Positions 20,876 through 64,000 are shown, counted from the first letter of the stretch. The stretch is 64,000 nucleotides of DNA from Parcubacteria bacterium C7867-006 (GCA_001189155.1 LFCP01000004.1:68782-132781); one strand, 5' to 3'. Numbers and translations: made by a program. Notes: generated by a model not told the origin, from the sequence alone.

Positions 20876-23779
20876 TTATTGAGCGTTTGGATTCATTGAC
20901 CAAGGAATCAATTCTGGAAGTTGAGCCATCAACTCTGGACACTCAAGGTTATTTATCTTTGTAACTGTTGATAGATAAACTAGACCTGTTGCGCTTGTTA
21001 GTCCCCAAGGCTTTAGAACATCATCAGAATATTTTGTTTGGAAGTTTTTAACTACTCCGTATGTCATTGGTCCGTAGAAACCTGTGATAGGCAAACTTGT
21101 TCCCATATTTTTGTTCAAGAATTCTTGAAGTTTCTTAACCTGACTAGCATTGTTCTTTGAACTACCTAGTCTAAAGTGTGTATTCAAGTAAAGTCCGCAA
21201 GACTCACCTAGAACTTCACCTGCTGTAGTAGAAGCTCCCAAAACCTGACCTCCACCTCCTAGTGAACCTACAATAGGACCATTACCTCCACCTCCTCCAC
21301 TTGGTGGTGTTACTGGTGTAGGTGCTGGAATAAATGCAGCACAATCTGGGTCAGCTAGATCAACTAGTCTATCACCATCATTGTCTATACCATCAGTACA
21401 CAATGGCTGTGTGTTTTCTACTGGTTGTGCTGTAACAATAACTGTTCGTGTTGTACTAGTTGAAGCATCTTCACTGTCCATAGCTGTATAAGTAAGTGTG
21501 TATGTTCCTGGAGTTGATGTAGAAACTGTTCCAGTCACAACTATAGAGGAAGTAATATCTCCATCCTCTGGGTCTGTTGATGATGCACCTGGGTCAACAA
21601 ATGTATCACCTACTAGCAAGTTGATTGGGTTGTTTCCAAAAAGAGTAATGCTTGGTAAGTCGTTAACTGGTTTTATGTCAATAGAAACTGTTGCTGTACT
21701 ACTGTTTGTTACACCGTCGTTAGCAACAAATGTGAATGAATCAGAACCATTTTCGTTTGCATTAGGAGTATATGTAAATGCTCCTGTGTTTAAGTCAAAT
21801 GATGTAAGTGTTCCTTTTGTTGGGTTTGATGTTGTAGCAAATGTAAGTGTTTGTGCTGGAAGATCTACGTCAGTTGCAGTCATAGCTGTAGATGTTGCTG
21901 TATCCTCATCTGTTGAAACAGACAAGTCGTTTGCAACTGGTGCTTCATTTACTTCGTTAACTGTAACTTTAAAAGTTTTTGAATCCTGTAGAGCTCCATC
22001 AGTAACAGATGCTGTGAAGTTATAAACTCCAGGACCTTGGTCCTCTGCTGGTGTCCAATCAAATATTCCTGTTACAGAATCTAGTGTTACTCCAGATGGA
22101 ACTGAACCAACTAGAGAGTAAACTAAAGTATCAAGTGGACTATCTAGGTCATTAGCAGAAATAGTGAAGTTTAGATTACTCAATTCATTTACAACATAAT
22201 CAGAAATTACATTCAATATAGGTGCATTATCATTTACGTTTATAGTAACTGTTGCTGAACTAGTTAAAGTTCCGTCAGAAACCTCGTATGTGAATGAGTC
22301 TAGTCCTTGATAGTCAGTTGCTGGTGTATATGTGAACGATCCATCTGGATTCATTATTACACTAGCCCCAACAACTATTGGTTGAGTTAGAATAGAAAAT
22401 GTAAGTGTGTTTGGTAGAAGAGGAACCAAATCAGAGTCTGTAGCAACTACAGTGTCATTTACTGCTGTATTTTGGTGAGTTGATACTGTAAGAGACTGAG
22501 CAACTGGTGCAACATTTACTTCATTTACAACAACTGTTACTGCTTTTGTATCTGTTCCTCCATTTCCATCAGAAACTAATACATTAAAGTTATATGTTGC
22601 TGGGCCCTGATTCTCTGCTGGTGTCCAAGTAAATACTCCTGTAGAAGAATCTATACCGGCTCCTGTTGGTTCACCAGAAAGTGAGTATGTCATTACATCT
22701 CCAGAATCTACATCAGTAGCAGAAGCTGTAAATGATAGATTTGTAAGTTCATCTAGAGCCACAGATGTTGTTGTGCTTATAGAAAGTACTGGGTTATCAT
22801 TTACGGAGTTAACTGTAATAGAAACTGTAGCAGTATTACTATCTACTGTTCCATCATAAACTTTGAAGTTAAATGAATCAGAACCGTTGAAGTCTGCATT
22901 TGGAGTATATGTGAATGCACCTGTAGTTGAGTTGAAAGATGTTATTGTTCCGTTTGCTGGGTTTGAAGTTGTTGCGTATGTAAGAGAGTCTCCATCTATA
23001 TCAGAAGCTGCAAGGTTTGAAGAAACATCTGTATCTTCATTTATAGATATAGCAGTACTTGATGCAACTGGTGCATCGTTCTCTGGAGTAACAGTGATTG
23101 TTGTTGTTGCAACATTACTGTATCCAAGTCCATCAGAAACCTTGAATGAGAATGCGTCTCCTCCGTTATAGTTTAATGACGGAGTATATGTAACTTGATT
23201 ACCTGAAACAGAACCTAGAGTTCCGTGTGTAGGACCGTTTACAATGAAATATGTAAGAGGTTGTGCTGGAGTATCAGAATCTGTAGCTGTCATAGTCACA
23301 ACCTTTGCTGTATCTTCAGGTGTTGTTACTGAACTACCAGTTGCAGCAGGAGCTGTATTTGGAGGACAAGTTGGAACTATTTGAGTAGCATCAATCTGAT
23401 TATCTTTACCATTTGGTTTTGAGTGGTATACCATTACAGAAACAGTAGTTGTTGGAGTTGATGAATAGTGATGTGGTCCAGCTGAAAAAGTAAAACTGTA
23501 TGGTGAAGTTGTATCTCCTCCTAGGTCTAATGGAATATTTGTCTCTATGTCTCCCGTATTCCAAACAACCTGAACGTGATACTGGTCTATTTGACTACCA
23601 TTTGCTGGAGTTACAGTACCACTACCAGTTACTGTTAAATCAGTACCTAAACATGGATTTCCTGACGTAACAACAGAATCAATCGAAGCAGTTGGTTGAT
23701 CAGCTAATGCAACACTTGGGATGAGTGTGTATGGCACCGCCAAAACCAGAGTCAGAACTAACGAAGTTATTTTTTTCAT
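20876..23779 (-). CDS. large secreted adhesin-like protein: tandem cadherin-like/VCBS domains (VNDAPV, VNEAPVA, VNDNPV), DNDGD calcium motif, C-terminal peptidoglycan-binding domain
   Basis: signal peptide, >6 internally repeated about 95-aa modules, PG_binding_1-like C-terminus (LQEFLNK...GFYGPMTYGVVKNFQ). Confidence 0.7.
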   Translation of the reverse strand: MKKITSLVLTLVLAVPYTLIPSVALADQPTASIDSVVTSGNPCLGTDLTVTGSGTVTPANGSQIDQYHVQVVWNTGDIETNIPLDLGGDTTSPYSFTFSAGPHHYSSTPTTTVSVMVYHSKPNGKDNQIDATQIVPTCPPNTAPAATGSSVTTPEDTAKVVTMTATDSDTPAQPLTYFIVNGPTHGTLGSVSGNQVTYTPSLNYNGGDAFSFKVSDGLGYSNVATTTITVTPENDAPVASSTAISINEDTDVSSNLAASDIDGDSLTYATTSNPANGTITSFNSTTGAFTYTPNADFNGSDSFNFKVYDGTVDSNTATVSITVNSVNDNPVLSISTTTSVALDELTNLSFTASATDVDSGDVMTYSLSGEPTGAGIDSSTGVFTWTPAENQGPATYNFNVLVSDGNGGTDTKAVTVVVNEVNVAPVAQSLTVSTHQNTAVNDTVVATDSDLVPLLPNTLTFSILTQPIVVGASVIMNPDGSFTYTPATDYQGLDSFTYEVSDGTLTSSATVTINVNDNAPILNVISDYVVNELSNLNFTISANDLDSPLDTLVYSLVGSVPSGVTLDSVTGIFDWTPAEDQGPGVYNFTASVTDGALQDSKTFKVTVNEVNEAPVANDLSVSTDEDTATSTAMTATDVDLPAQTLTFATTSNPTKGTLTSFDLNTGAFTYTPNANENGSDSFTFVANDGVTNSSTATVSIDIKPVNDLPSITLFGNNPINLLVGDTFVDPGASSTDPEDGDITSSIVVTGTVSTSTPGTYTLTYTAMDSEDASTSTTRTVIVTAQPVENTQPLCTDGIDNDGDRLVDLADPDCAAFIPAPTPVTPPSGGGGGNGPIVGSLGGGGQVLGASTTAGEVLGESCGLYLNTHFRLGSSKNNASQVKKLQEFLNKNMGTSLPITGFYGPMTYGVVKNFQTKYSDDVLKPWGLTSATGLVYLSTVTKINNLECPELMAQLPELIPWSMNPNAQ

Positions 23780-24126
23780 AATTTTTATAAATTTAATAAT
23801 TTTTATAACGCAAAAACCGGCCTAAAAAGACCGGTTATGCTATTAGCTCCCCACAGCCCAAGCGTCCAAATACAGACTGTGGTTCATCGCCTTCTTTAGT
23901 AACAACTAAACCCTAAATATCTAACTAAATCGTATTCTACACTAACTTAAAATATCGTCAATGGTTGAGCAAATTCACTAAATTTTATTAAAATTGATTA
24001 AAAAATTAAATTATTATTATAAAAATATCATTTTTTTTAATTTTTTTAAAAAATAATGAAAATTTAGAAATTATAAAACTTCACAACGATGTGAAGTTTT
24101 ATAAAACAAAAACTAGAAAACTTTTG

Positions 24127-49958: not shown

Positions 49959-50617
49959 TTTTTGTATGTCTGGGCACTGTTTGCTCCTTCTGTAATAAAT
50001 GCTGTGTCACCTTTGTTCCAGAAGACGAAAGTCTCATCAGTGTTTGCATATCTCGCACCAGATGCAGAGATAGCTCGAGGAACTCTCATACTTCTACCAT
50101 CACTAAGCTCCAAATCAACGAATTTGTCTTCACCGATATAAAAACTAGCTGTTATACTTTTTGAATCAGCACATGCAAAAACCACTTTCTTTGGAACAAC
50201 GACAGAACTTTTTTCTATTTTGAACTGACCACTTTCTGCTGTCACTGTATCTGTTATTGGAATAGAAGCATAACTGTTAACTCCTATAACATAGTTACCT
50301 GCTGGATACATATCTGAAACAGTCCAGTCCTGACTTCCAGTGTTTGGAAGATTGATAAAAACGATTGGATCAAACTCCTGACCTTCTTCTTGTAGAGGTG
50401 GCGGAGGAACCCTCCTGATTGTAATCGAAATTTTGTCTGTCGCTGGAATATTTTTAGTCTTCCATTTTATTACATAAACAGAACCCTCTGTTAAAACATC
50501 TCCACTCGCTGGAGAGAGCACCTGCATGGAAGGTTTTTTATCTACAGTGAAAAAATAACCAGCGATACAAATAGCAACTACCAACAAAACAATCAAAATG
50601 GCTTTGTTTTTGTTCAT
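49943..50617 (-). CDS. secreted protein with C-terminal MliC-like (lysozyme inhibitor) domain
   Basis: signal anchor; conserved Cys pair, SASGARY, FWNKGDTA resemble MliC. Confidence 0.5.
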   Translation of the reverse strand: MNKNKAILIVLLVVAICIAGYFFTVDKKPSMQVLSPASGDVLTEGSVYVIKWKTKNIPATDKISITIRRVPPPPLQEEGQEFDPIVFINLPNTGSQDWTVSDMYPAGNYVIGVNSYASIPITDTVTAESGQFKIEKSSVVVPKKVVFACADSKSITASFYIGEDKFVDLELSDGRSMRVPRAISASGARYANTDETFVFWNKGDTAFITEGANSAQTYKNCQLK

Positions 50618-50847
50618 AGCACCATTATATCAAATTAGCCTGATGTTTATTGCTTTCTCAAAAATGCAGTAGCAAAAATCCAAAAAAGTGGTAATATTGG
50701 CTTGTTAGTTAAACATATTGGGTGAGGTTGGGTTGGGACCCGACCGCAAGGCCGGAGCCTGACGAGGCGAGGAGGGGTCGCAAAAATTTTCACCAAAAAA
50801 TTATTTGTGACATCGACGACGATCTCACTTAATTTTATAAACCATAT

Positions 50848-50921
50848 TGGGAGATCGTCTAACGGTAGGACAGAGGCCTTTGAAGCCTTTAATTGGGGTT
50901 CGATTCCCTGTCTCCCAGCCA
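50848..50921 (+). tRNA. tRNA-Gln (anticodon UUG), CCA encoded
   Basis: cloverleaf folded by hand: acceptor U1-A72...7 bp, D-loop GG, AC loop cUUUGaa, T-loop TTCGATT, discriminator G, CCA. Confidence 0.85.
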
Positions 50922-51012
50922 GCTTGAGATAGTTTCGGACTCCGAGGAGGGTCGAAATGGCTCAAGTATCTATTCCGCCACCACATACCTGCTGAGAGCA
51001 GTATTCAAGACA

Positions 51013-51045
51013 AAAAATCACTGAGTTATATCAGTGATTTTTTGT
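51013..51045 (+). terminator. hairpin ATCACTGA-gttatat-TCAGTGAT plus T6
   Basis: seen directly downstream of tRNA. Confidence 0.6.
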
Positions 51046-51066
51046 TGTGCATAAGTATAACTTGAC

Positions 51067-51086
51067 TATACCCCCTAGGGGGTATA
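51067..51086. promoter_or_regulatory. perfect 20-bp palindrome TATACCCCCTAGGGGGTATA, candidate CsoR operator overlapping csoR promoter
   Basis: GC-rich palindrome of the known CsoR-operator style, 11 nt upstream of csoR ATG, flanked by TTGACT and TATATC. Confidence 0.5.
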
Positions 51087-51096
51087 TCATCTAACT

Positions 51097-51360
51097 ATGA
51101 ATATAAATAAATCTAAAATACTACGTAGGTTAAAAATTATTGAAGGGCAAGTTAGAGGACTGGGAGAAATGGTCGAAAAAGGTGCATATTGTATTGATGT
51201 CATAACCCAGGGTTCTGCAGTCAAACAAGGTATTTCAAATATTGAAGATATGCTCATGGAGCATCATCTTTCGCATTGCGTTGTTAAGCAAATAAAAGAA
51301 GGAAAACCAACAAAAGCTGTTGAGGAAGTTCTTAAGGTTTATAAACTTAAACGTAAATAA
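51097..51360 (+). CDS. csoR: CsoR/RcnR-family copper-sensing repressor
   Basis: 87 aa; C-H-C metal ligands (CIDV...HHLSHC). Confidence 0.8.
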
Positions 51361-51365
51361 AATAT

Positions 51366-53660
51366 ATGAATCATACTCAAACATATAAAATAAAAGGAAT
51401 GCATTGTGCATCATGTGCAAGCATCATTGAAAAAACTTTTAAAAAATCAGACGGTGTTCATTCGGTCGAAGTAAATTATGGAACTGAAACAGCTAAAATT
51501 GCTTTTGATGAATCAAAAACTAGTCCACATCATCTTTCTAAAAATATTGAAAAGTTGGGGTACTCCCTTGATATTCCTAGTGCTGAATCAATGGGCATGA
51601 GTGCTAATGAACACGCGGCTCATTTAGGCTTGAACCAATCAAAAAAAGAGAAATTGGCGGAAGTTGCAGACATGCGAACGAAAGTGCTTTCAGCTATTCC
51701 AATTGCTATTCTTGCTGCTTTTATTATGGGTTGGGATATATTTGCTGAATATAACATTGCTCCTGCAATGAGTTATACACTTAAGGAATTTTTCCATCAT
51801 CTCCTTCCAATACTTGCCACTTATATTTTGTTTGTAGTTGGCAAACCATACTTATTTGGTTTTTATAGATTTCTCCGATATGGCAAGGCAAACATGGACA
51901 CTCTTATTGGGATTGGTACCAGTACCGCTTTTTTATATAGTTTTGCTGTAACTGCATTCGAGGATGTTCTCCGCCCTTTTATTAATGTTGAATATCAATA
52001 CTATGATGTCACAATCGTGGTTATTACTTTTATCGCATTGGGTAAATATCTTGAAGCAAGATCAAAAATTAAAACTGGAGATGCTATTGAAAAACTTCTT
52101 AATCTTCAAGCAAAGACCGCACTCGTTATTCGTGATGGAAAAGAAGTTGAGATTTCAGTTAATGACGTTAAACATAATGATCTGATAATTGTTAAGCCTG
52201 GGGCAAAGATTCCAGTAGATGGTGTTGTAACCGAAGGTAGTTCTTTTATTGATGAATCCATGGTTACAGGAGAACCAATGCCAGTACAGAAAAAGGTTGG
52301 CGACAGTGTTGTGTCTGGAACGATTAACACCAATGGCTCATTCACTTTTAAGGCAACTAAAGTGGGGTCTGAAACATTACTTGCACAGATTATAAAGATG
52401 GTGGAGGAAGCTCAAGGAAGTCGTGCACCAATACAAGCTCTTGCAGACAAAATATCAGCAATTTTTGTACCAATTGTTCTGGTAATCGCTTTTCTCACTC
52501 TTGGAGCGTGGCTCATAGTCGGGTCTCAGTATTTAGGTTTCTCTCAAGCTCTTTCATTCGGGCTAGTTTCATTTGTTGGGATTCTCGTTATCGCATGTCC
52601 ATGCGCACTTGGTTTGGCTACACCGACTGCTATTATTGTTGGTGTCGGCAAAGGTGCCAAAGAAGGCATTCTTATTAAAGATGCGGCTACACTTGAAAAA
52701 CTCCATAAGGTAAACACAGTTGTAGTTGATAAGACAGGCACCATCACTATTGGTAAGCCAACTCTTGTCGATATTCAAAATAATTCAAATCTTAACGACG
52801 AAGAATTTATATCAATTCTCGCCTCACTTGAGAAAAAGTCAGAGCACCCAATTGCACACGCCATTGTAAACTACGCACAAGAAAAAAATATTCCAATATC
52901 AGAAGCTCTGGTATTTGAAGCAATACAAGGTAAAGGATTAAAAGGATCAATCAAAGGAACAGAATACTTCGTGGGTAATACAAAACTTGTAAGTGATCTT
53001 ATCCTTTCATTCGACAATATGAAATTGAATGAGTTTACATCACAAGGTAAAACTCCAGTTATTCTAGCAAGTAAAGAAAAAGTTCTCGGTTTTGTTATGG
53101 TCGCTGACGAGATAAAGCAAGAATCAAAGCAAGCTGTTTCTGATCTTCATGATTTAGGCGTCAAGGTTGTGATGCTTACAGGTGATGATGAAAAAGCTGC
53201 TAAATACATTGCATCACTTGTTGGTATTGATGAAGTTGTAGCCCATGTGTTGCCACAGGATAAACTTGAAAAGATAAAAGAACTTCAATCACATGGTCTA
53301 GTAGTTGCTATGGCAGGTGATGGTGTAAATGACGCCCCAGCACTCGCTCAAGCAGATGTTGGCATCGCTATGGGAACTGGAACAGATGTGGCAATAGAAT
53401 CAGCTGGCATTACACTTCTGGGCGGAGATATTTCAAAGCTGGTGAAAGCTATTAAGCTTTCTAAAATCACCATGAGAGGTATTAAGCAGAATCTTTTTTG
53501 GGCATTCATCTACAACATTGTTGGTATTCCTTTGGCCGCAGGAGCTTTGTACCCAGTTTTTGGGTGGCTATTAAATCCTGTATTTGCAGGATTTGCGATG
53601 GCAATGTCCTCAGTATCAGTAGTGTCAAATTCACTTCGTATTAAAGCGAAGAAATTATAA
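51366..53660 (+). CDS. copA: copper-translocating P1B-type ATPase
   Basis: [27 protein letters not shown]. Confidence 0.95.
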
Positions 53661-56008: not shown

Positions 56009-57331
56009 TTAATCGAGTGTTATCTTTTTATTATTTAACAATATTTTACTATTCAAACAGCCTAATAATTCTCTTTTCTCTAAACCACTAGCTTCCTGTA
56101 AGACATACTTTGCATAATTTCGTATATCAATGTCATTAACCTCAATTTTTTCTTTTGACCCGATGATTATTCGTTGAAATTTTTTAACTCTTTCTACTTC
56201 AGTTTTAATTTTTTCTTTTATACCTAATTCATCTAGGTTAATTTTATTCATTAGTTGAACAAGTTGTTCAATCAAATCTTCTTCATTTATGTATCCTGAT
56301 TTACAGTGTTTATCTTTAAACTTAGTGCAACCGTAGTAAACGTAACGATGTACATTTCCATTTTTCTGCTTTTTAAATTTCTCATCTGCCGTAATACCAG
56401 ATCCGCATAAACCACATGTCATTAATTTTGTGAAGGCAAATTCTTTATCTTCTACTCGGATAATTTGTCCATTTATTTGAGCTTGAACCTGATCAAAAAG
56501 TTCTTTTGTAATTAGAGGTTCGTGTACACCCTTATACCAAAGACCACTTTTCTTAGGGAACTCAAAAGTGCCATAATAAAAATCGCTTTTTAGAATTAAA
56601 TAAATATTGCTTAAGGTTAATCCTTTGTTTCCGTTAGGGGTTTTAAAGTTAAGTTCAAATTTGAGCCAATGAAATATCTTTTTACCACTCCACTTTTCGT
56701 ATGCAACTTTCTCAAACATTTTTTTAATAACATGACCTCGGTCTGGATCAATATACACACAACCTTTTCTATCAACCCTCATTTCATTGAGGTATCCCAT
56801 GGGAGCGGGTGCTGGCCATAAACCCATCTCACATCTAGTTCTCAATCCACGCTTAACATTGATGCTTTTATTATCGTTCTCAAGTTTTGCTTGAGAACAC
56901 AAAATCATTAATAAGAACTTTTCGTTTGGTGAATTCTGGAATGACTGACCATAAGTTCTAATTTGATGTAGTTTCTTTTCATCCATCAGGTCTACCAATG
57001 TGCCGAGGTCACCAGCATTTCTGCTTAAACGATCTGGTGCCCATGTCAAAATACCAGTGTACCTTCCAGAATTTAGATCTCGAATAAGCTCATTAAACAC
57101 AGGTCTTTGACCTGATGCTTTTGCAGAGTGAGACTCACGCCTAATATCTACTACCTCAAGATTATCTCTTTCCGCAATCTGTAGCATCTCTTTTACTTGA
57201 GAGTCAATTGATAATGCCTGTTTCTCGTCAGATTCAGTTGATTTACGAGCATATAGGCAATATCTCACTTTATCTATAGGCACTACATCTGGAGCCCATA
57301 TTTGAGCCCCTCTGTTTATTACTGCTTCCAT
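56009..57331 (-). mobile_element. large serine recombinase (resolvase/integrase) gene
   Basis: N-terminal resolvase domain YARKSTESDEKQALSIDSQ, recombinase domain, C-terminal zinc ribbon CGLCGS...C. Confidence 0.85.
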
Positions 57332-57373
57332 ACCTATATTGATGACGCAATGGTTCTGGGAGTCAAGGAGAAA

Positions 57374-57949
57374 TTAAGTATCTTTGTCCACATCTGGATC
57401 CAGCATCTTTTTGGCTATTTCTTCCTTCTCAAAATCAATCTTCCATTCTTTGTAGGATGCATTGAATATGTCTATTAGATTTTGCTCATCGTTACAGAAT
57501 ATTTTAATAAAAGGTTCAAATATATGGTAAGCAATATCTTCCTCATAATTCTTTTCAAGATTGTGAATAATTGCAAACATACTTTCGAAATTGTTACCGT
57601 TCTCTAGAGGTTTCTTTACAATGTCGGTATCTCTGGTCAACAAGGAACTATAATGTATACCTTTTTCTTTTTGCATATACCTCGAATCATTATGAGATAA
57701 CCAAAAAGTCGCAGACTTATGTTCTCCTCGTTGGACTCCTTTTATAATTACAGTTTCAGCAGATCCGTTTATAGCTTCTCGTCCAACAAATAAAGCCATG
57801 ATGACTTTTTTATGAAAGGATTGGTGTCGCATAATCCATCTATAAAAAGTACTATGGTCTATTCCAACTTTATTGCAGACATATCGAATATTTGGAATTA
57901 TTTCTAATTCCTTAACAATTCTTTTGGTTATGTCATCTCCATACCTCAT
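57374..57949 (-). CDS. phage-like HTH protein (terminase-small-subunit-like N-terminus)
   Basis: N-terminal HTH; context next to recombinase. Confidence 0.3.
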   Translation of the reverse strand: MRYGDDITKRIVKELEIIPNIRYVCNKVGIDHSTFYRWIMRHQSFHKKVIMALFVGREAINGSAETVIIKGVQRGEHKSATFWLSHNDSRYMQKEKGIHYSSLLTRDTDIVKKPLENGNNFESMFAIIHNLEKNYEEDIAYHIFEPFIKIFCNDEQNLIDIFNASYKEWKIDFEKEEIAKKMLDPDVDKDT

Positions 57950-57951
57950 AG

Positions 57952-59223
57952 CTAATTTATCTTATGAGCCTTGTCACCGGTAAAGATTTCATACCTTTTA
58001 ATTATTAAATCTACAAAGACTGGGTCGATTTCAACCATAAAACACTTTCTTTTAAGTTGGTGAGATGCAATAAGTTCTCCGCCACTTCCACCGAAAAGAG
58101 AAAGGATATTGTCTCCGATTTTTGTACAGCGTTTAATTGGTTTGTCGTGAAGAGTGATTGGCTTTTCTGTTGGATGTTCGTAGAGGTTTCCAGATAATCT
58201 TCGTATTGCCCACACATCAAACATTTCCATATAGTTTTCAATCATCTCATTACCGGTACCAATATCTTTATTTAACACTTCATCATAATTTCTATGATGT
58301 GGAGAAAGATAGGGCTTTCCTTTTGTTCCATAAACACACGGTTCATACACTTTGGAAAATGCTATTTGAGGGGTTGGGTTAGCTATTCCTTTTAACCATA
58401 TACAGATTCTCTTAAAATCAATACCGATTTCTTTATAGATGGAAGCAATAAGTGGTGTATACGTTTGATCACAGTAATAGAAGAAGTGAGCATTGGTGTT
58501 TGTAACAGCAAAAGCGTTTTTAATTGTTTTCTTTAGAAACTCCTCGTAATCTTTATCATTTTTATTATCAGTACTTGAACCGCCATAGTTTTTAGTTCCT
58601 CCAATTCCATTTTTGTAGGATAGGTTAATGTTGTAAATTGGGTCACAATAAACCATATCAATTTTCTCCTGACCAACGACTTTTTCTACTGACTTAATGT
58701 CGGTAGAGTCACCACACAATAGTCTGTGTGGGCCAAGTTGATACAAATCACCAAGTTTACTTTTTGGTTTTTTTATTTTCTCTAACTCCTTTTCAGTAGA
58801 GAATCCATCCTCTTCCGTATCCAGATCAATAAATACTCCATCGAGTTCCTCGTCTGAAAAACCAATATCTTCAAGAAATTTTTCATCAAACTCACTTAAT
58901 AGCTCAATATCAAATTCACCTTGATTCTTATGTAAACGAATAGCAAGTTCCTTTTCCTTATCAATCTCTGAAATACTTGTGTACACAACTGGTACTTCTT
59001 TGATACCGAGTTCTTTTGCAACCCTTAAACGACCATGACCACCAATTAGAATGTTTTTCCTATTGGGTGCGCCATTTAGAATTAAAGGGTCAACAAAACC
59101 AAATCTTTTTACAGATTCAGATATTTGAGTGAGTTGTTCCTTCGAGAACTTTTTTGGATTGTACTCATTAGGTTTAATTTTACTCACAGGCACATAACAA
59201 ACAGACAACTTTTCATTGTTCAT
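57952..59223 (-). CDS. ParB-like nuclease domain fused to beta-class N6/N4 DNA methyltransferase
   Basis: ParB N-terminus; DPIYNIN (DPPY) then FGGSGGE SAM motif (motif IV before I). Confidence 0.75.
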   Translation of the reverse strand: MNNEKLSVCYVPVSKIKPNEYNPKKFSKEQLTQISESVKRFGFVDPLILNGAPNRKNILIGGHGRLRVAKELGIKEVPVVYTSISEIDKEKELAIRLHKNQGEFDIELLSEFDEKFLEDIGFSDEELDGVFIDLDTEEDGFSTEKELEKIKKPKSKLGDLYQLGPHRLLCGDSTDIKSVEKVVGQEKIDMVYCDPIYNINLSYKNGIGGTKNYGGSSTDNKNDKDYEEFLKKTIKNAFAVTNTNAHFFYYCDQTYTPLIASIYKEIGIDFKRICIWLKGIANPTPQIAFSKVYEPCVYGTKGKPYLSPHHRNYDEVLNKDIGTGNEMIENYMEMFDVWAIRRLSGNLYEHPTEKPITLHDKPIKRCTKIGDNILSLFGGSGGELIASHQLKRKCFMVEIDPVFVDLIIKRYEIFTGDKAHKIN

Positions 59224-59552
59224 AATATTTTATTGCTAACTAATAAGAGAGAAGGGCTTTTAAAGAAAAAGCCACTTCTTATAACTCTGCAGTAAACAAA
59301 GTTATCCGAATGAGTGACATTTTAGGTAGACTATCTAGGTTTGTATTCAAATTATAGAACGATAGGGGCCAAAAAGTCGATATGACTTATCCACAGATAT
59401 TTAATCATGTCAAGAGTGTAAAGAATGTAAATCGCTTCGCAGGGATTGAGTGATGTGATAGGGTGGAAAAATAGCACCCAAAAGTGCTATGATAAGAGCA
59501 CAATTTAATAAGTATAAGTAGCCTAAACCTAGTTTTCACTAGGCATGGTGAA

Positions 59553-59690
59553 AAGTCCTATCAAGCATAAAGAACCCATCATGGGGTCGCTTGATAGGCC
59601 ATATCGGGAAACCGGTATGAGAGACTTCGGTCTCTACCCGTGGTGGGCTTTTTGTGTATCTGCCACGGCATTAGCAAGTCCTATCAAGCA
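59553..59690 (+). promoter_or_regulatory. structured leader: 15-nt direct repeat AAGTCCTATCAAGCA (59553 and 59676) plus inverted partner GCTTGATAGG (59589) and hairpin GAGAGAC-ttcg-GTCTCT followed by T5
   Basis: seen directly; second repeat covers the RBS of the HNH gene; middle arm can pair with either flanking copy. Confidence 0.3.
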
Positions 59691-59693
59691 AAA

Positions 59694-60128
59694 ATGATAA
59701 ATTTTGAACATCCCGAAGATCGGGAGTATTTTGCTAATTTATTAGCAAATGGAGATGTAAAAAAATTAGACAGAGATTTTTCTGAGCTTTTTGATTTTGA
59801 ACATCTTGCAATGAAAAGATGGAGATTTAATAAGATTAGGAAAAAGATTTTAAAAGAACTTATTGAGAAATACGGCAATGAGTGTCAGTTAAAAATCCAT
59901 CCTGATTGTAGTAAGGTGCAAAAATTTGAACCTGATCACATTATTCCGCTAGCTTCAAATGAGTTAAATAAAAAATTAAGAAAAATGGCTCGTTTTTCCA
60001 GTGAGAAAGTTGAGCAACAGAGTTTCGGATCAAATAATATGAAAAACCTCACTTTGGCATGTAAAAGATGTAATGCTTTCAAAAAACATCGTATGTTTTT
60101 GTCAATAAATTTTGGTCTTCAAAAATGA
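59694..60128 (+). CDS. HNH endonuclease
   Basis: C..C...EPDHIIP...N...C..CN HNH fold motifs; start taken at ATG 59694 downstream of the repeat-bearing leader. Confidence 0.7.
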   Translation: MINFEHPEDREYFANLLANGDVKKLDRDFSELFDFEHLAMKRWRFNKIRKKILKELIEKYGNECQLKIHPDCSKVQKFEPDHIIPLASNELNKKLRKMARFSSEKVEQQSFGSNNMKNLTLACKRCNAFKKHRMFLSINFGLQK

Positions 60129-60147
60129 GCTAAAAAATGTTAAAATC

Positions 60148-61596
60148 ATGGCAATTATGTTTGAACAAGCTTTTAAGAATATAGATAAGATCCTCCGTAA
60201 CGATAATGCGGGTGGCGCGATGGATTATATAGAACAGACTTCCTGGATAATTTTTTTGAAGTATCTAGATGATCTAGAGACTGAACGTGAAAAGTCAGCG
60301 AAACTTTCTGGTAAAAAATACTCTTATATTCTTGATGGAGAATACAGATGGAGTTCTTGGGCATGCCCAATGAGCAAAGATAGAAAAATTGACTATAACA
60401 AAGCCCTTACAGGTGATGATCTCAATACTTTTGTTGACCAGAAACTCTTTCCGTATTTAAAGAAATTCAAATCAGAAAATTCAGATACTATTGAGTATAA
60501 AATTGGAGAGATTTTTAGTGAACTCAAAAATAAAATAAAAAGTGGATATGCTCTGCGTGACATTCTTAATATCGTGAATGGTCTACATTTCCAATCAAGC
60601 GAGGAAAAACATGAACTTTCTCACTTGTATGAGAGTAAAATTGCTGAAATGGGAAATGCTGGTCGTGACGGTGGACAATATTACACTCCTCGTCCACTTA
60701 TTCGAACTATTGTAAAAATGGTAAATCCAAAAATTGGAGAAACAATATACGATGGAGCATGCGGATCAGCAGGGTTTCTTATAGAAGCCTTTGACTATCT
60801 TACAGAAAACAAACAAAAACTTTCTCTCAAGGAGTACCAGACACTTCAGGAAAAAACTTTTTATGGAAAAGAAAAAATTACTTTGCCGTATATTATTGGT
60901 GTAATGAACATGATCTTGCATGGCATAGATGCTCCAAATATTATTCACACAAATACTCTCTCTGAGAATCTTACTGATATTCAAGAAAAAGATCGTTTTG
61001 ATGTCATTCTCGCCAACCCTCCCTTTGGAGGAGGTGAAAGAAAAGAGGTTCAACAAAACTTTCCGATAAAGAGTGGTGAAACTGCATATTTATTCTTGCA
61101 ACATTTTATAAAAAAACTTAAAGCAGGTGGTCGAGCTGGTATTGTAATTAAAAACACATTTCTTTCTAACGGCGATGCCTCAAATTTACGAAAAGAGTTT
61201 TTAAATAGTTGTGATGTTCACACAATTCTAGATTTACCATCTGGAGTATTCCAAGCTGGAGTAAAAACAGTAGTTTTATTTTTTGAGAAAGGTAAGACAA
61301 CAAAGAAAATATGGTATTACCAACTTAATCTTGGTCGAAATTTAGGTAAGGGCAATCCTTTAAGTGAGTTAGACCTGGCGGAATTTGTGAAATTACAGAA
61401 GACAAAAGCAGATAGCGAAAACTCATGGAGTATTAATGTCTCTGATATTGATAAAGAAAGTTTTGATTTATCTGTAAAAAATCCGAGTAAGAAAGATGGT
61501 GGTGTCTTGCGTGAACCAAAAGAAATTATTGATGAAATGCAAAAACTTGATACAGAAATTAAAAGTAGTGTGATGGGTATTCAAAAACTATTATGA
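60148..61596 (+). CDS. hsdM: Type I restriction-modification N6-adenine DNA methyltransferase subunit
   Basis: NPPFGG motif IV, HsdM N-terminal domain, GSAGFL motif I. Confidence 0.9.
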   Translation: MAIMFEQAFKNIDKILRNDNAGGAMDYIEQTSWIIFLKYLDDLETEREKSAKLSGKKYSYILDGEYRWSSWACPMSKDRKIDYNKALTGDDLNTFVDQKLFPYLKKFKSENSDTIEYKIGEIFSELKNKIKSGYALRDILNIVNGLHFQSSEEKHELSHLYESKIAEMGNAGRDGGQYYTPRPLIRTIVKMVNPKIGETIYDGACGSAGFLIEAFDYLTENKQKLSLKEYQTLQEKTFYGKEKITLPYIIGVMNMILHGIDAPNIIHTNTLSENLTDIQEKDRFDVILANPPFGGGERKEVQQNFPIKSGETAYLFLQHFIKKLKAGGRAGIVIKNTFLSNGDASNLRKEFLNSCDVHTILDLPSGVFQAGVKTVVLFFEKGKTTKKIWYYQLNLGRNLGKGNPLSELDLAEFVKLQKTKADSENSWSINVSDIDKESFDLSVKNPSKKDGGVLREPKEIIDEMQKLDTEIKSSVMGIQKLL

Positions 61597-62342
61597 AAAA
61601 ATTTGAGTATAATAAAGAAAATCTCAGATTAATTGCTTTTATTATCGCAAGTGCTTCATCAGGCACACTTTTTACAAAACTTTTACAAGATTCTGGTTGG
61701 AATGTTGTAAGTACAGCATCAGAAGAGTATAGAAAATCTGGTAAATCTAAAGAAGATTATCTTTTTGATCAATTTAATAAGATTGCCGAGGAGGGTAGGA
61801 TAGATGTACTAGAATTTATAATAGATAAGACTCTTTCAAAAAGTAGTGTTTATTTTAAAAAAGGTGATAAAGATTATAAATTTCCTAGAGATTCTTTTGG
61901 TGAACTAAAAAAGAAAGTTGGTAAAAAGGAGAAAAGTGATAAAAAGAAAAATAGCAAATTATTCGATGACAGAAAGTTACATGGATCGGTTGGTTTTGCC
62001 AGCAAAGACCTTTTCGTTTCAGAATTTTATTCACAGTCTATTTTTGAAGCATGTAAACTTTTGAATAAGAGAGTGCAAGAGCTGTCAAAATCTACAAAAG
62101 ATGGAAAGTCATTAATGCTAGATGTTTTTAGTGTAAATAATCCTATTTTAAAAATAAGTGATAATCAATCTCAGTCAGATAAAGATGAGCAAGAAGGATT
62201 TATGCACTTATTTGCAGGTGTTATGCACGGAATTCGGAATCCTAAAGGGCATGAGTTAATAAATCTAATAGATCCACTTAGAACACTAGAGTACCTCAGC
62301 TTTATTAGTCTTCTTTTTAGGAAACTAGATGAATTAAAGTAA
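61593..62342 (+). CDS. Ymh-family (TIGR02391-like) protein with HEPN-type Rx4H motif, inserted between hsdM and hsdS
   Basis: ATGA overlap with hsdM; C-terminal HGIRNPKGHE; positional hallmark between M and S subunits. Confidence 0.5.
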   Translation: MKKFEYNKENLRLIAFIIASASSGTLFTKLLQDSGWNVVSTASEEYRKSGKSKEDYLFDQFNKIAEEGRIDVLEFIIDKTLSKSSVYFKKGDKDYKFPRDSFGELKKKVGKKEKSDKKKNSKLFDDRKLHGSVGFASKDLFVSEFYSQSIFEACKLLNKRVQELSKSTKDGKSLMLDVFSVNNPILKISDNQSQSDKDEQEGFMHLFAGVMHGIRNPKGHELINLIDPLRTLEYLSFISLLFRKLDELK

Positions 62343-62343
62343 T

Positions 62344-64000
62344 ATGAAAACTAGCTGGCAAATAAAAGAACTTGGAGAAATAATTAAATTAGAATATGGA
62401 AAACCACTTCCAGATTCTAAGAGACATCCTGACGGTAAGTATCCTGTATATGGTGCTAATGGGGAAAAAAATAGGACTAACGAATTTTTTTATAATAAAC
62501 CAAGCATAATCGTTGGTCGCAAGGGTTCTGCCGGAGAACTGAATCTAACTGAAGAAAAATTCTGGCCTCTTGATGTAACTTATTTCGTTACTTTTGATTC
62601 CACTAAATATGATTTAGGTTTTATTTATAATCTTCTTAATACATTAGAGCTTACAAAACTAGCAAAGGGTGTAAAGCCGGGAATAAATAGAAATGATGTT
62701 TATTCTATTAAAGTAGATACTCCACCAATCTCTGAGCAAAAGCGAATTGTGAAAAAATTAGATGAGGTTTTTGAGAAAGTAACAAAGGCAAAGGAGGCCG
62801 CAGAAAAAAACCTACAAAATTCGAAAAAGCTCTTTGAGTCCTATTTGAATGGTATCTTTGTGAATCCGAGTAAAGACTGGGATGAAAGATTTCTAGGAGA
62901 AGTATTACAGAAGACAGAAACTGTTGATCCAACAAAAAAACCTAAAGAAAAGTTTGTATATATTGATGTTTCAAGTGTAGATAAGGAAACAAAAGAGATA
63001 GTGAACACATCTTTACTTATAGGAAAAGACGCACCTAGTCGAGCAAGAAAACTAGTTAAAACTAATGATGTTATTTTTGCTACTGTTAGACCAACACATG
63101 CTAGAGTGGCCATAATAACAGAGAAATATAACAACCAAGTTTGTAGCACCGGATATTTTATTTTGAGGACAAATGACCTGATGAATAATAAGTTAGTATT
63201 TTATTTCCTACTCACTTCTAGTTTTAATAGACAGATGGAAAAATTACAAAAGGGCGCAAGTTATCCTGCTGTTACAGATAGTGAAGTAAAAAATATAAAG
63301 ATTTTATTTCCGAAGTCTCTTGCTGAGCAAAAAAAGATTATAGATAAACTTGATGTGCTTTCAATTGAAACAAATAAGTTAGAGAAAATATATAAAAAGA
63401 AACTCGCTTGTTTGGAAGAACTTAAAAAGTCTATTTTAAAACAAGCTTTTGAGGGGAAACTAGTTGTTCAAGAACAAACAAGTTCTCTTCCTGTCCCATC
63501 ACCATATATTCGTAATCAAGTTCATGCTGCGATTGTTGGACAAGTATCAAAAGATGGTGGAGAGACTACAGAAGTTGCTGTCGCTAAATATGACCATTTA
63601 CTACAAGAAATTTTTGGCATATCACTAGGTTATCAATTTCAAACGCATCTATTTGGGCCATTTGATGTAGAAATAAAAAAATTAGTTTCTTCTGGTCTTA
63701 GCCCTAGAAATAGATGGTTTGTAAAAAGAAACGGTATGATTGTCGCTGGTAGTAATATTACTGCATTACTTTCACGTTCAAGTAACTTATATAGAAATGC
63801 ACAGACAGCTATGATTGAACTGGCGAGATTGGGAATAACAAAGATGAATACTGACAAAGTTGAGTTATTATCGACTGTCTGTCATGCAATAAAAGAATGC
63901 AGATCTACTGATTTAAAAATTATTAGAAATTTTATGGATCAATGGCAAACAAACAATAATCAAACAAAGGCTCAAAAATTTTCTTTAGAACAGACTAAAA
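62344..64000 (+). CDS. hsdS: Type I R-M specificity subunit HsdS with two TRDs and an additional C-terminal extension; 3' partial (runs off window)
   Basis: TRD1, central conserved region, TRD2, distal conserved LKKSILKQAFEGKL, then more than 170 further residues; no stop before 64000. Confidence 0.8.
   Translation, partial: MKTSWQIKELGEIIKLEYGKPLPDSKRHPDGKYPVYGANGEKNRTNEFFYNKPSIIVGRKGSAGELNLTEEKFWPLDVTYFVTFDSTKYDLGFIYNLLNTLELTKLAKGVKPGINRNDVYSIKVDTPPISEQKRIVKKLDEVFEKVTKAKEAAEKNLQNSKKLFESYLNGIFVNPSKDWDERFLGEVLQKTETVDPTKKPKEKFVYIDVSSVDKETKEIVNTSLLIGKDAPSRARKLVKTNDVIFATVRPTHARVAIITEKYNNQVCSTGYFILRTNDLMNNKLVFYFLLTSSFNRQMEKLQKGASYPAVTDSEVKNIKILFPKSLAEQKKIIDKLDVLSIETNKLEKIYKKKLACLEELKKSILKQAFEGKLVVQEQTSSLPVPSPYIRNQVHAAIVGQVSKDGGETTEVAVAKYDHLLQEIFGISLGYQFQTHLFGPFDVEIKKLVSSGLSPRNRWFVKRNGMIVAGSNITALLSRSSNLYRNAQTAMIELARLGITKMNTDKVELLSTVCHAIKECRSTDLKIIRNFMDQWQTNNNQTKAQKFSLEQTK

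What the first reader, a model, noticed from the sequence alone, without database searches (positions are those of the whole stretch)
62344..64000. HsdS specificity subunit with an extra C-terminal domain of more than 170 aa beyond the distal conserved region
After complete TRD1, central repeat, TRD2 and the distal LKKSILKQAFEGKL helix, the ORF continues (VVQEQTSSLPVPSPYIRNQVHAAIVGQ...KYDHLLQEIFGISLGYQFQTHLFGPFDVEIKK...), and no stop occurs before the window end. The pattern KYDHLLQEIF...FGPF faintly resembles Panacea/SocA-like (DUF4065) antitoxin domains, which would make an HsdS-antitoxin-domain fusion. That call is weak, and the extension may instead be a novel effector/sensor domain. The hsdR gene is not within the window.
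Basis: partly seen in the sequence, partly recalled or inferred. Interest (0 to 1): 0.6.

Follow-up and report, generated by a model that had tools for sequence, protein, structure and literature searches.

The report
Restriction specificity subunit with antitoxin-like domain
The DNA-recognition subunit of a Type I restriction system here carries an extra, independently folded C-terminal domain related to the toxin-binding domain of DarG/Panacea antitoxins, which suggests (but does not show) that restriction enzymes can be physically linked to suicide-type defence genes in the same operon.

Summary
The ORF at 62344 is a complete HsdS (two TRDs, central and distal helices) that continues into an extra domain. 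A 99.5%-identical contig from another metagenome shows one 571-aa protein ending 59 nt past the window edge, followed by hsdR. It is not a frameshift: the fusion recurs in about 150 protein clusters, all HsdS.

Function is inferred. The domain sits on a flexible linker, and its operons are enriched for embedded defence effectors (13/15 versus 5/13 in matched controls, p=0.016). Here the embedded gene is Hypoth_Ymh with an intact HEPN RNase motif, 1 nt upstream. My best guess (about 0.4) is a docking or neutralising module that couples an effector to the R-M complex, as in PrrC-EcoprrI. This is a new variant of known kinds.

The parts
60112..61596 (+). hsdM (Type I methyltransferase subunit). 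The mechanical ORF starts at TTG 60112; ATG 60150 is a more plausible start.
   Evidence: Pfam N6_Mtase E=7.6e-63 and HsdM_N E=2.8e-10. The sequence around the start was read.
61593..62342 (+). Embedded gene ymh: Hypoth_Ymh/TIGR02391, a HEPN-like predicted RNase. It overlaps the hsdM stop by 4 nt and ends 1 nt before the hsdS ATG. It is the candidate partner or effector.
   Evidence: Pfam Hypoth_Ymh E=4.3e-32. TIGR02391 E=4.3e-24. PADLOC PD-Lambda-3_B E=7e-17 and Aga_HEPN E=2.6e-12. Intact Rx4H motif RNPKGH at residues 215-220, and the gene junctions.
62344..63450 (+). HsdS core: TRD1, central conserved helix (aa 129-172), TRD2, distal conserved helix (aa 326-369).
   Evidence: Methylase_S x2. 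PADLOC Specificity_I models. Full-length AF2 model with helices at 129-172 and 326-369.
63451..63501 (+). Flexible linker (aa 370-386, ...GKLVVQEQTSSLPVPS...).
   Evidence: No secondary structure, and pLDDT below 50 at residues 376-380. The whole-protein pTM is 0.64, against 0.91 for the domain alone.
63502..64000 (+). EXT domain: a DarG-C-terminal-domain-like / Panacea-superfamily module (winged-helix subdomain plus helical bundle). The window end cuts it; the last 19 residues and the stop lie at window-equivalent 64001-64059.
59640..60128 (+). HNH endonuclease gene immediately upstream of hsdM and overlapping its mechanical ORF. It is possibly co-transcribed; whether it belongs to the system is uncertain.
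   Evidence: Pfam HNH_5 E=3.8e-6 and HNH E=1.2e-4.

Best explanation
Shown (about 0.9 confidence): the operon is a Type I R-M system, hsdM - ymh - hsdS - hsdR. Its specificity subunit carries an independently folding domain of about 180 aa (EXT) on a flexible linker of about 17 residues after the distal conserved helix. EXT is homologous to the C-terminal domain of the antitoxin DarG, the part that binds and sequesters the toxin DarT, and more distantly to Panacea/SocA (DUF4065) antitoxin domains. It defines a recurrent family that was found only as an HsdS C-terminal fusion.

Inferred mechanism (about 0.4 confidence): EXT is a protein-docking, antitoxin-type module. It tethers an effector encoded in the same operon to the HsdS-HsdM(-HsdR) complex and probably holds it inactive. 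In this window the candidate effector is the HEPN-like Ymh protein, encoded 1 nt upstream. In relatives the candidates include Fic, AbiEii, GmrSD, AAA+HNH and TIR proteins. On this reading, perturbing the restriction complex during infection would release or activate the effector. That is the same logic as the PrrC anticodon nuclease held latent by EcoprrI. The R-M core would work without EXT.
For: Homology to DarG-CTD:
- DarG HMMs from two libraries hit the window domain and 24/35 and 28/35 diverse family members, with best E-values 2.3e-11 and 5.5e-14.
- The reverse search with the family profile gives 7yk3_B as the top PDB hit, E=8.5e-5 over 151 positions.

Known function of the relatives:
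- DarG-CTD alone binds DarT and neutralises it (PMC7003065).
- Panacea neutralises dozens of unrelated toxins, including Fic/Doc and RNases (PMC8832971).
- DUF4065 is reported homologous to DarG-CTD (PMC13621843).

Module anatomy:
- The domain sits on a flexible tether.
- It can be gained or lost within one HsdM/HsdR clade: EXT-less HsdS proteins pair with HsdM proteins 74-75% identical to those of EXT loci.

Genomic context:
- Ymh has an intact HEPN RNPKGH motif, no separate antitoxin gene lies between hsdM and hsdS, and the TAA-n-ATG junction to hsdS is tight.
- In related loci the gene directly 3' of hsdS::EXT usually overlaps or lies within a few nt, and encodes a defence effector.
- Embedding between hsdS and the next hsd gene is seen in 13/25 EXT loci versus 8/55 controls (p=8e-4), and in 13/15 versus 5/13 within the same HsdM clade and gene order (p=0.016).
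Against: - No interaction was tested.
- Type I loci are known to carry embedded genes often, whatever the HsdS type (bioRxiv 10.1101/2024.01.29.577857). My controls come from viral contigs, the loci are not phylogenetically independent, and under strict matching the difference is not significant (3/5 versus 5/12).
- The partners are extremely heterogeneous. Many are multi-gene systems known to work autonomously, such as GmrSD-type TgvAB (PMC11411939), Septu-like AAA+HNH and short pAgo. Meanwhile EXT stays 50-58% identical across them. This fits a constant binding partner better than co-evolving toxins.
- Some EXT loci have no embedded gene at all: L013, L033, L039.
- In the window the candidate effector lies upstream, not downstream, and hsdR follows hsdS directly.
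- EXT is basic (net +7; family median +7), unlike the acidic ssDNA mimicry reported for DarG-CTD (PMC11481870).
- Ymh-family genes also occur with ordinary HsdS (from my own knowledge of TIGR02391; not tested here).
Confidence: 0.4

Rival explanations
1. EXT binds a constant partner of the R-M machine itself, HsdR or HsdM, and regulates restriction. It could sequester HsdR, or hand it to a protease during establishment or restriction alleviation, as the Panacea protein SocA delivers SocB to ClpXP. On this reading the embedded cassettes are incidental.
For: EXT is conserved (50-69% identity) across loci whose only constant neighbours are hsdR and hsdM. Loci exist with no embedded gene (L013, L033, L039). 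In the window and in L002 and L004, hsdR follows hsdS::EXT directly, with a 4-nt overlap in L002. SocA is described as a proteolytic adaptor in PMC8832971.
Against: Closely related HsdM/HsdR sets work with EXT-less HsdS (L041-L045), so EXT is not needed for core assembly. Nothing was tested on HsdR binding. This reading does not explain the enrichment of embedded effectors.
Confidence: 0.2
2. EXT is a nucleic-acid-binding winged-helix module. It either gives the complex extra non-specific DNA or RNA contacts, or autoregulates the operon as a C-protein or antitoxin HTH would.
Confidence: 0.15
3. EXT is a sensor or decoy for phage proteins, such as acidic DNA-mimic anti-restriction proteins or another phage trigger. 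It would be analogous to antitoxin domains that double as phage sensors, and would signal to whichever effector is embedded.
For: The domain is basic and sits on a flexible tether at the surface of the complex that anti-restriction proteins target. The effector partners are variable while EXT is conserved. The RM-guard concept (PrrC, PARIS) is reviewed in PMC12707154.
Against: This is purely inferential. No phage partner was identified. Viral fold matches are weak (TM<=0.52, partial).
Confidence: 0.1
4. The extension is an artefact: a sequencing or assembly frameshift joining hsdS to a separate downstream gene.
For: Some metagenomic relatives do show frameshifted or split copies (L018, L032, L037), and L002 may encode a truncated 'distal helix + EXT' ORF.
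Against: An independent, 99.5%-identical contig has the same continuous 571-aa ORF. Three genome assemblies and about 100 full-length representatives carry the same architecture. The split copies are explained by frameshifts within otherwise collinear sequence.
Confidence: 0.02

Closest known systems
DarG antitoxin, C-terminal domain (DarTG system; PDB 7YK3)
   Same: Same fold and detectable sequence homology over essentially the whole domain, with the AKxxYxxQ, FGPY, ELLATV and W motifs aligned. It is a C-terminal accessory domain fused after another functional module.
   Different: There is no macrodomain and no adjacent DarT. The domain is fused to HsdS instead. EXT is basic, whereas DarG-CTD is described as mimicking negatively charged ssDNA. 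Sequence identity is only about 12-13%.
Panacea / SocA (DUF4065, PF13274) antitoxin domain, PanAT systems
   Same: Same superfamily, on the evidence of weak recurrent Pfam hits (7/35) and a published statement of DUF4065-DarG-CTD homology. It sits next to highly diverse toxin or effector genes, including Fic/Doc and predicted RNases, recalling the 'hyperpromiscuity' of Panacea.
   Different: The window sequence does not reach any Pfam threshold. EXT is never a stand-alone small antitoxin in a bicistronic TA pair; it is always the tail of HsdS. Many neighbours are large multi-gene defence systems, not simple toxins.
PrrC anticodon nuclease embedded in the Type IC EcoprrI locus (R-M 'guard')
   Same: An RNase-type effector gene is embedded inside a Type I hsd operon. 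The proposed logic is the same: the effector is held latent by the R-M complex and fires when the complex is attacked.
   Different: The effector here is a HEPN-like Ymh protein, not an ABC-ATPase anticodon nuclease. In EcoprrI no dedicated docking domain on HsdS is known. Any physical association here is hypothetical.
Type I-embedded defence cassettes (e.g. TgvAB in V. cholerae VPI-2; Payne et al. 'guilt by embedding')
   Same: Defence genes such as GmrSD-like proteins and ABC ATPases are inserted between hsd genes.
   Different: Those cassettes act independently of the R-M proteins and sit beside ordinary HsdS. The new point here is that the HsdS itself carries an antitoxin-type domain.
Ordinary HsdS (about 380-470 aa) and other long HsdS variants
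   Same: Identical TRD1-helix-TRD2-helix core.
   Different: EXT adds about 198 aa. A different, unrelated tail of about 110-130 aa (PQDPNDEPAS..LLERIRAER..) exists in other HsdS proteins.

Membership tests
Type I R-M specificity subunit (HsdS) | Two target-recognition domains (Methylase_S) separated by, and followed by, conserved helices | tested here: met
   Methylase_S with 2 stretches, E=5.8e-30. Modelled helices at 129-172 and 326-369.
Type I R-M specificity subunit (HsdS) | Encoded with hsdM and hsdR | tested here: met
   hsdM lies at 60112-61596. hsdR lies immediately downstream in the 99.5%-identical contig L119.
DarG antitoxin (DarTG) | N-terminal macrodomain with ADP-ribosyl glycohydrolase activity | tested here: not met
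   No macrodomain hit in the protein. The DarG HMMs align only to profile positions of about 174-328.
DarG antitoxin (DarTG) | Adjacent DarT (DUF4433) toxin gene | tested here: not met
   The neighbours are ymh and hsdR. No DUF4433 appears among the 25 listed families for 58 neighbour proteins of related loci. The rest of the window was not scanned for DarT.
DarG antitoxin (DarTG) | C-terminal helical toxin-binding domain | tested here: met
Panacea / SocA (Pfam PF13274, DUF4065) | Match to PF13274 at or above the curated threshold | tested here: not met
   No Pfam hit for the window domain at E<=1. Only 7/35 family members give weak hits, best E=6.7e-5.
Panacea / SocA (Pfam PF13274, DUF4065) | Encoded next to a toxin that it neutralises by direct binding | not testable with these tools
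   A HEPN-like gene is adjacent and effector genes are adjacent in relatives. Neutralisation and binding need experiments.
PrrC-type R-M-linked abortive infection | Effector gene embedded inside a Type I hsd operon | tested here: met
   ymh lies between hsdM and hsdS with a 4-nt overlap and a 1-nt spacer.
PrrC-type R-M-linked abortive infection | PrrC-like ABC-ATPase plus anticodon-nuclease protein | tested here: not met
   The embedded protein is Hypoth_Ymh/HEPN-like, with no ATPase domain.
PrrC-type R-M-linked abortive infection | Effector physically masked by the R-M complex and released by anti-restriction factors | not testable with these tools
   Inference only.

The most novel reading that the evidence does not exclude
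EXT is a general 'guard adaptor' built into the restriction enzyme. On this reading the basic, flexibly tethered DarG-CTD/Panacea-like domain on HsdS holds whichever effector is embedded in the operon (HEPN RNase, Fic, GmrSD, Septu-like, TIR and others). It releases that effector when phage anti-restriction proteins, such as acidic DNA mimics, engage the R-M complex. That would make it a modular, plug-and-play coupling of restriction to abortive infection that generalises the single PrrC-EcoprrI example.
Probability: 0.1. Interest if true: 0.85.

Novelty: new variant of a known kind. Interest (0 to 1): 0.6.

Why it matters
Type I R-M loci are known hotspots for embedded defence genes. Apart from PrrC-EcoprrI, there is little evidence that the embedded genes communicate physically with the restriction complex.

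A conserved family of HsdS proteins carrying a domain whose characterised relatives bind and silence toxins offers a concrete, testable handle on that coupling. The tests are direct: delete EXT, assay Ymh toxicity, pull down partners. The finding also extends the DarG-CTD/Panacea superfamily to a new architecture, covalently attached to a DNA-recognition subunit. It shows as well that current annotation hides an extra domain with a recognisable relative: public sources name these proteins only 'type I restriction enzyme, S subunit'.

If the domain instead regulates HsdR or binds DNA, it would still be a previously undescribed regulatory element of Type I enzymes.

Tried and rejected
- Frameshift or artefact: rejected.
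- Direct Pfam DUF4065/Abi/Fic/PrrC assignment of the window extension: no hit at E<=1.
- A narrow 3-sequence profile against the PDB: nothing. The 35-sequence profile later found DarG.
- A DarT partner: not seen next to EXT in the window, in L119, or among the listed families for 58 neighbour proteins.
- Stand-alone EXT proteins: the apparent cases L037 and L032 are frameshifted hsdS copies. L002 is ambiguous because only 84 nt lie upstream.
- Plasmid and phage collections: no tblastn match for two EXT queries.
- AlphaFold-DB fold search: the library was unavailable.
- Viral fold library: only weak partial matches.
- The metagenome scan with the full diverse alignment failed for lack of a conserved stretch and was redone with a sub-family. 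The context survey is therefore biased towards the ELLATVCK-bearing clade, not the window's own clade (ELLSTVCH).
- The word-indexed homologue search with the alignment returned only 8 proteins.
- Acidic DNA-mimic idea: not supported, since the net charge is +7.
- Relation between EXT and the other long HsdS tail (PQDPNDEPAS...): none (hhalign probability 0.1%).
- Overlap of cassette repertoires between EXT and control loci: 4/86, uninformative given the diversity.
- Co-folding EXT with Ymh was not attempted, because the tool returns no inter-chain confidence or coordinates.

Full report
**1. The observation**

The + strand from 62344 to the window end translates into 552 codons without a stop. 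Residues 1-373 are a canonical Type I specificity subunit:
- Pfam Methylase_S matches twice (E=5.8e-30).
- Dozens of PADLOC Specificity_I models match.
- A full-length AlphaFold model shows two TRDs, each followed by a long helix (129-172 and 326-369).

The distal helix ends ...LKKSILKQAFEGKL at residue 373. The ORF then continues for 179 more codons inside the window. From the local base composition (stop-codon probability 0.084), the chance of that is about 1.5e-7.

An exact-sequence look-up of the neighbouring Ymh protein found a contig from an independent metagenome (L119). It is 99.5% identical to the window over 2508 nt, and it contains the same uninterrupted ORF. That ORF is 571 aa and ends ...KKCLDFILSKRLEQKLLIFT*, which is 59 nt beyond the window edge. 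It is followed by a gene beginning MNEAETRAEYVDPKLKEAGWG, an HsdR N-terminus (compare L002). The operon is therefore hsdM (60112-61596), ymh (61593-62342), hsdS::EXT (62344 to about 64059), then hsdR.

**2. The extension is a conserved family, always on HsdS**

Two close homologues (84% and 66% identity) first revealed the C-terminus. Three MAG assemblies (Nomurabacteria, Portnoybacteria, Kaiserbacteria) encode the fusion as single ORFs of 572, 595 and 574 aa.

A profile search of 1.84 billion representative proteins found 151 clusters at E<=1e-3 and 97 at E<=1e-10. Nearly all are 570-660 aa with the domain at the extreme C-terminus (local tally). All 20 hits checked were either Methylase_S proteins (16) or short proteins with no Pfam hit (4); none had a macrodomain or any other architecture.

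The family is rare. It gave no tblastn hit in 72,556 plasmids or 50,697 phage records. Public sources name its members only 'type I restriction enzyme, S subunit'. One PADLOC Specificity_I model of 595 positions (PDLC03135) includes the domain, so such proteins are catalogued but not described.

Conserved motifs are GEMxxAKxxYLL, FGPYxxxIKK, ELLATVCKxIxD, W, KAxKF and GWDKKL.

**3. What the domain is**

The window sequence has no Pfam hit at E<=1. It does match the non-macro, C-terminal half of DarG in two independent libraries:
- NCBIfam NF048014: E=3.9e-5, profile positions 174-328/338.
- PADLOC DarG: E=5.6e-7, positions 175-317/329.

Across 35 diverse domain-only sequences, the results were:
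- 28 hit PADLOC DarG, best E=5.5e-14.
- 24 hit NCBIfam DarG, best E=2.3e-11.
- The only recurring Pfam family is SocA_Panacea PF13274 (DUF4065), with 7 members and best E=6.7e-5.

In the reverse direction, the family profile searched against all PDB sequences gives the M. tuberculosis DarG C-terminal chain 7yk3_B as its top hit. The E-value is 8.5e-5, with 151 profile positions aligned and the AKxxYxxQ, FGPY and ELLATV motifs matching.

An AlphaFold2 model of the window domain is very confident (pLDDT 96.8, pTM 0.91). Its best PDB matches are:
- Foldseek: 7yk3_B and 7yk3_D, probability 1.00, TM 0.62-0.68; the next hit has E=0.29 and TM about 0.2.

Sequence and structure therefore agree: EXT is a homologue of the DarG C-terminal domain.

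The literature on that domain says the following:
- It is sufficient to bind DarT and abolish its toxicity (PMC7003065).
- It is described as occluding DarT's DNA site by mimicking negatively charged ssDNA (PMC11481870, citing Deep et al. 2023).
- A 2026 paper states that DUF4065 proteins are homologous to it (PMC13621843).
- Panacea/DUF4065 is the 'hyperpromiscuous' antitoxin domain that neutralises many unrelated toxins, including Fic/Doc and RNases (PMC8832971).

I found no paper describing this domain on HsdS.

**4. Anatomy of the fusion**

In the full-length model (pLDDT 89.1), residues 370-386 lack secondary structure, and residues 376-380 have pLDDT below 50. The pTM falls to 0.64, against 0.91 for EXT alone. 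This describes two well-folded modules on a flexible tether.

EXT is basic: net charge +7 for the window copy, family median +7, interquartile range +5 to +10. The acidic ssDNA mimicry proposed for DarG-CTD probably does not carry over.

**5. Genomic context**

In the window, the gene between hsdM and hsdS::EXT is a Hypoth_Ymh/TIGR02391 protein (E=4.3e-32). It matches the HEPN-type PADLOC models PD-Lambda-3_B and Aga_HEPN. It has an intact Rx4H motif (RNPKGH, residues 215-220). Its gene overlaps the hsdM stop by 4 nt and ends 1 nt before the hsdS ATG. It has no solved homologue.

I surveyed 35 further loci carrying EXT with my own gene calling and local HMM classification. In most of them, one to three non-hsd genes sit directly beside hsdS::EXT, usually overlapping its stop or within a few nt. 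They encode a wide range of defence effectors:
- DUF4062 with Schlafen/AlbA_2
- short pAgo with a DpnII-like nuclease
- GmrSD
- AAA_15/21 ATPase with HNH
- AbiC-like
- Cas4/RNaseH-like
- Shedu
- AbiEii
- Fic
- NACHT-REase
- TIR
- RhuM

A census of 58 distinct neighbours gave GmrSD_N x6, AAA_15 x5 and DUF4062 x3, with no DarT among the listed families.

**6. Is that association specific?**

Embedded genes are common in Type I loci generally (TgvAB example). I therefore fetched 80 Type I loci through an HsdM alignment and applied the same pipeline.

| Comparison (after de-duplication) | EXT loci | Ordinary HsdS loci | Statistic |
|---|---|---|---|
| Genes embedded between the hsdS 3' end and the next hsd gene | 13/25 | 8/55 | OR 6.4, p=8e-4 |
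| Same HsdM clade (>=60% identity), same hsdR-hsdS-hsdM order | 13/15 | 5/13 | OR 10.4, p=0.016 |
| Strict requirement for Hsd genes on both sides | 3/5 | 5/12 | not significant |

One 'ordinary' case, L018, is actually a frameshifted EXT locus with an embedded gene.

Several caveats apply. The controls are viral contigs. Loci that share a cassette are not independent. Five close relatives (L041-L045; HsdM 74-75% identical) have EXT-less HsdS and no embedded genes, while three EXT loci (L013, L033, L039) have none either. Cassette repertoires of EXT and control loci barely overlap (4/86), which is uninformative at this level of diversity. The enrichment is suggestive, not proven.

**7. Mechanism**

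Shown:
- The identity and homology of the domain.
- Its exclusive attachment to HsdS.
- The flexible tether.
- The operon structure.
- The HEPN-like neighbour.

Inferred: the characterised relatives of EXT bind and silence toxins, and EXT-bearing operons are enriched for tightly coupled effector genes. I therefore favour a docking, antitoxin-type role that links an operon-encoded effector (here Ymh) to the R-M complex, with PrrC-EcoprrI-like logic. I put this at about 0.4.

The main counter-arguments are:
- The heterogeneity and known autonomy of many partner systems.
- The conservation of EXT across them.
- The existence of EXT loci with no embedded gene.
- The basic charge of the domain.

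These keep three rivals alive: regulation of HsdR or HsdM, possibly as a protease adaptor like SocA (0.2); a nucleic-acid-binding winged helix (0.15); and a phage-protein sensor or decoy (0.1).

**8. Comparison and novelty**

The protein is a bona fide HsdS. It is not a DarG, because it has no macrodomain and no DarT. It does not meet Pfam's Panacea threshold. It shares only the toxin-binding-type domain with those families. I rate it a new variant of known kinds: a Type I R-M system combined with an antitoxin-superfamily domain. The family is real, but its function remains a hypothesis.

Noticed in passing
window 59520-59635 (+), with the HNH ORF at 59640-60128 (+): A full-length LOOT RNA (Rfam RF03000, 88 bits, E=2.3e-15) lies immediately upstream of a small HNH endonuclease gene, which in turn abuts hsdM. 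The RNA, the HNH gene and the R-M operon may form one transcription unit. The role of LOOT is unknown to me, and the paper library gave nothing.
   Followed up: partly
window 56009-59223 (-): The R-M operon sits next to mobile-element genes on the opposite strand: a large serine recombinase (56009-57331), an HTH/small-terminase-like protein (57374-57949), and a ParB_N + N6_N4 DNA methylase fusion (57952-59223). The operon may be cargo of an integrative or phage-like element.
   Followed up: no
window 23820-23903 (-): A c-di-GMP-II riboswitch (63 bits) lies directly upstream of a 967-aa ORF (20876-23779, - strand). Together with GC of about 0.35, this suggests a Firmicutes/Clostridia-like host. 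The closest genome-assembly relatives of the window's EXT clade, however, are CPR/Patescibacteria MAGs, which could mean horizontal transfer.
   Followed up: no
window about 50600-51400; tRNA at 50848-50918 (+): Gene orientation switches from almost entirely - strand (up to 50617) to + strand (from 51366), next to a tRNA. The cumulative GC skew reaches its minimum here. This could be a replication-related switch or an island boundary.
   Followed up: no
L052:4610-6436, L054:4717-6522, L069:1503-3260, L084:10413-12125, L116:10473-12029, L117:11363-12988: A second, unrelated HsdS C-terminal extension of about 106-130 aa (…PQDPNDEPASxLLERIRAER… plus a small helical domain). In all six cases it is followed, with a -4 or -1 overlap, by a cassette of a gene of about 534-582 aa and a gene of about 262-359 aa. 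HsdS tails coupled to embedded cassettes may be a general theme. The cassette proteins were not annotated.
   Followed up: partly
L006:3707-6729, also L011 and L022: A short prokaryotic Argonaute (Piwi domain, 664 aa) plus a 346-aa DpnII/MboI-type nuclease-domain protein are embedded between hsdR and hsdS::EXT. A DUF4062 + Schlafen/AlbA_2 pair sits on the other side of hsdS. That makes two defence cassettes flanking one hsdS.
   Followed up: partly
L002:85-738: A 217-aa ORF consists only of the HsdS distal helix plus EXT. It is preceded by in-frame stops and by no recognisable TRD in any frame within the 84 nt available, and it overlaps the hsdR start by 4 nt. It could be a truncated remnant or a genuine stand-alone form. 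The contig is too short to tell.
   Followed up: partly
A2 members; PADLOC PDC-M19A, AbiEi: Three EXT family members also hit the PADLOC candidate-system model PDC-M19A (E=8.4e-5), and one hits AbiEi (E=0.0064). This hints that the same domain occurs in other catalogued defence candidates.
   Followed up: no
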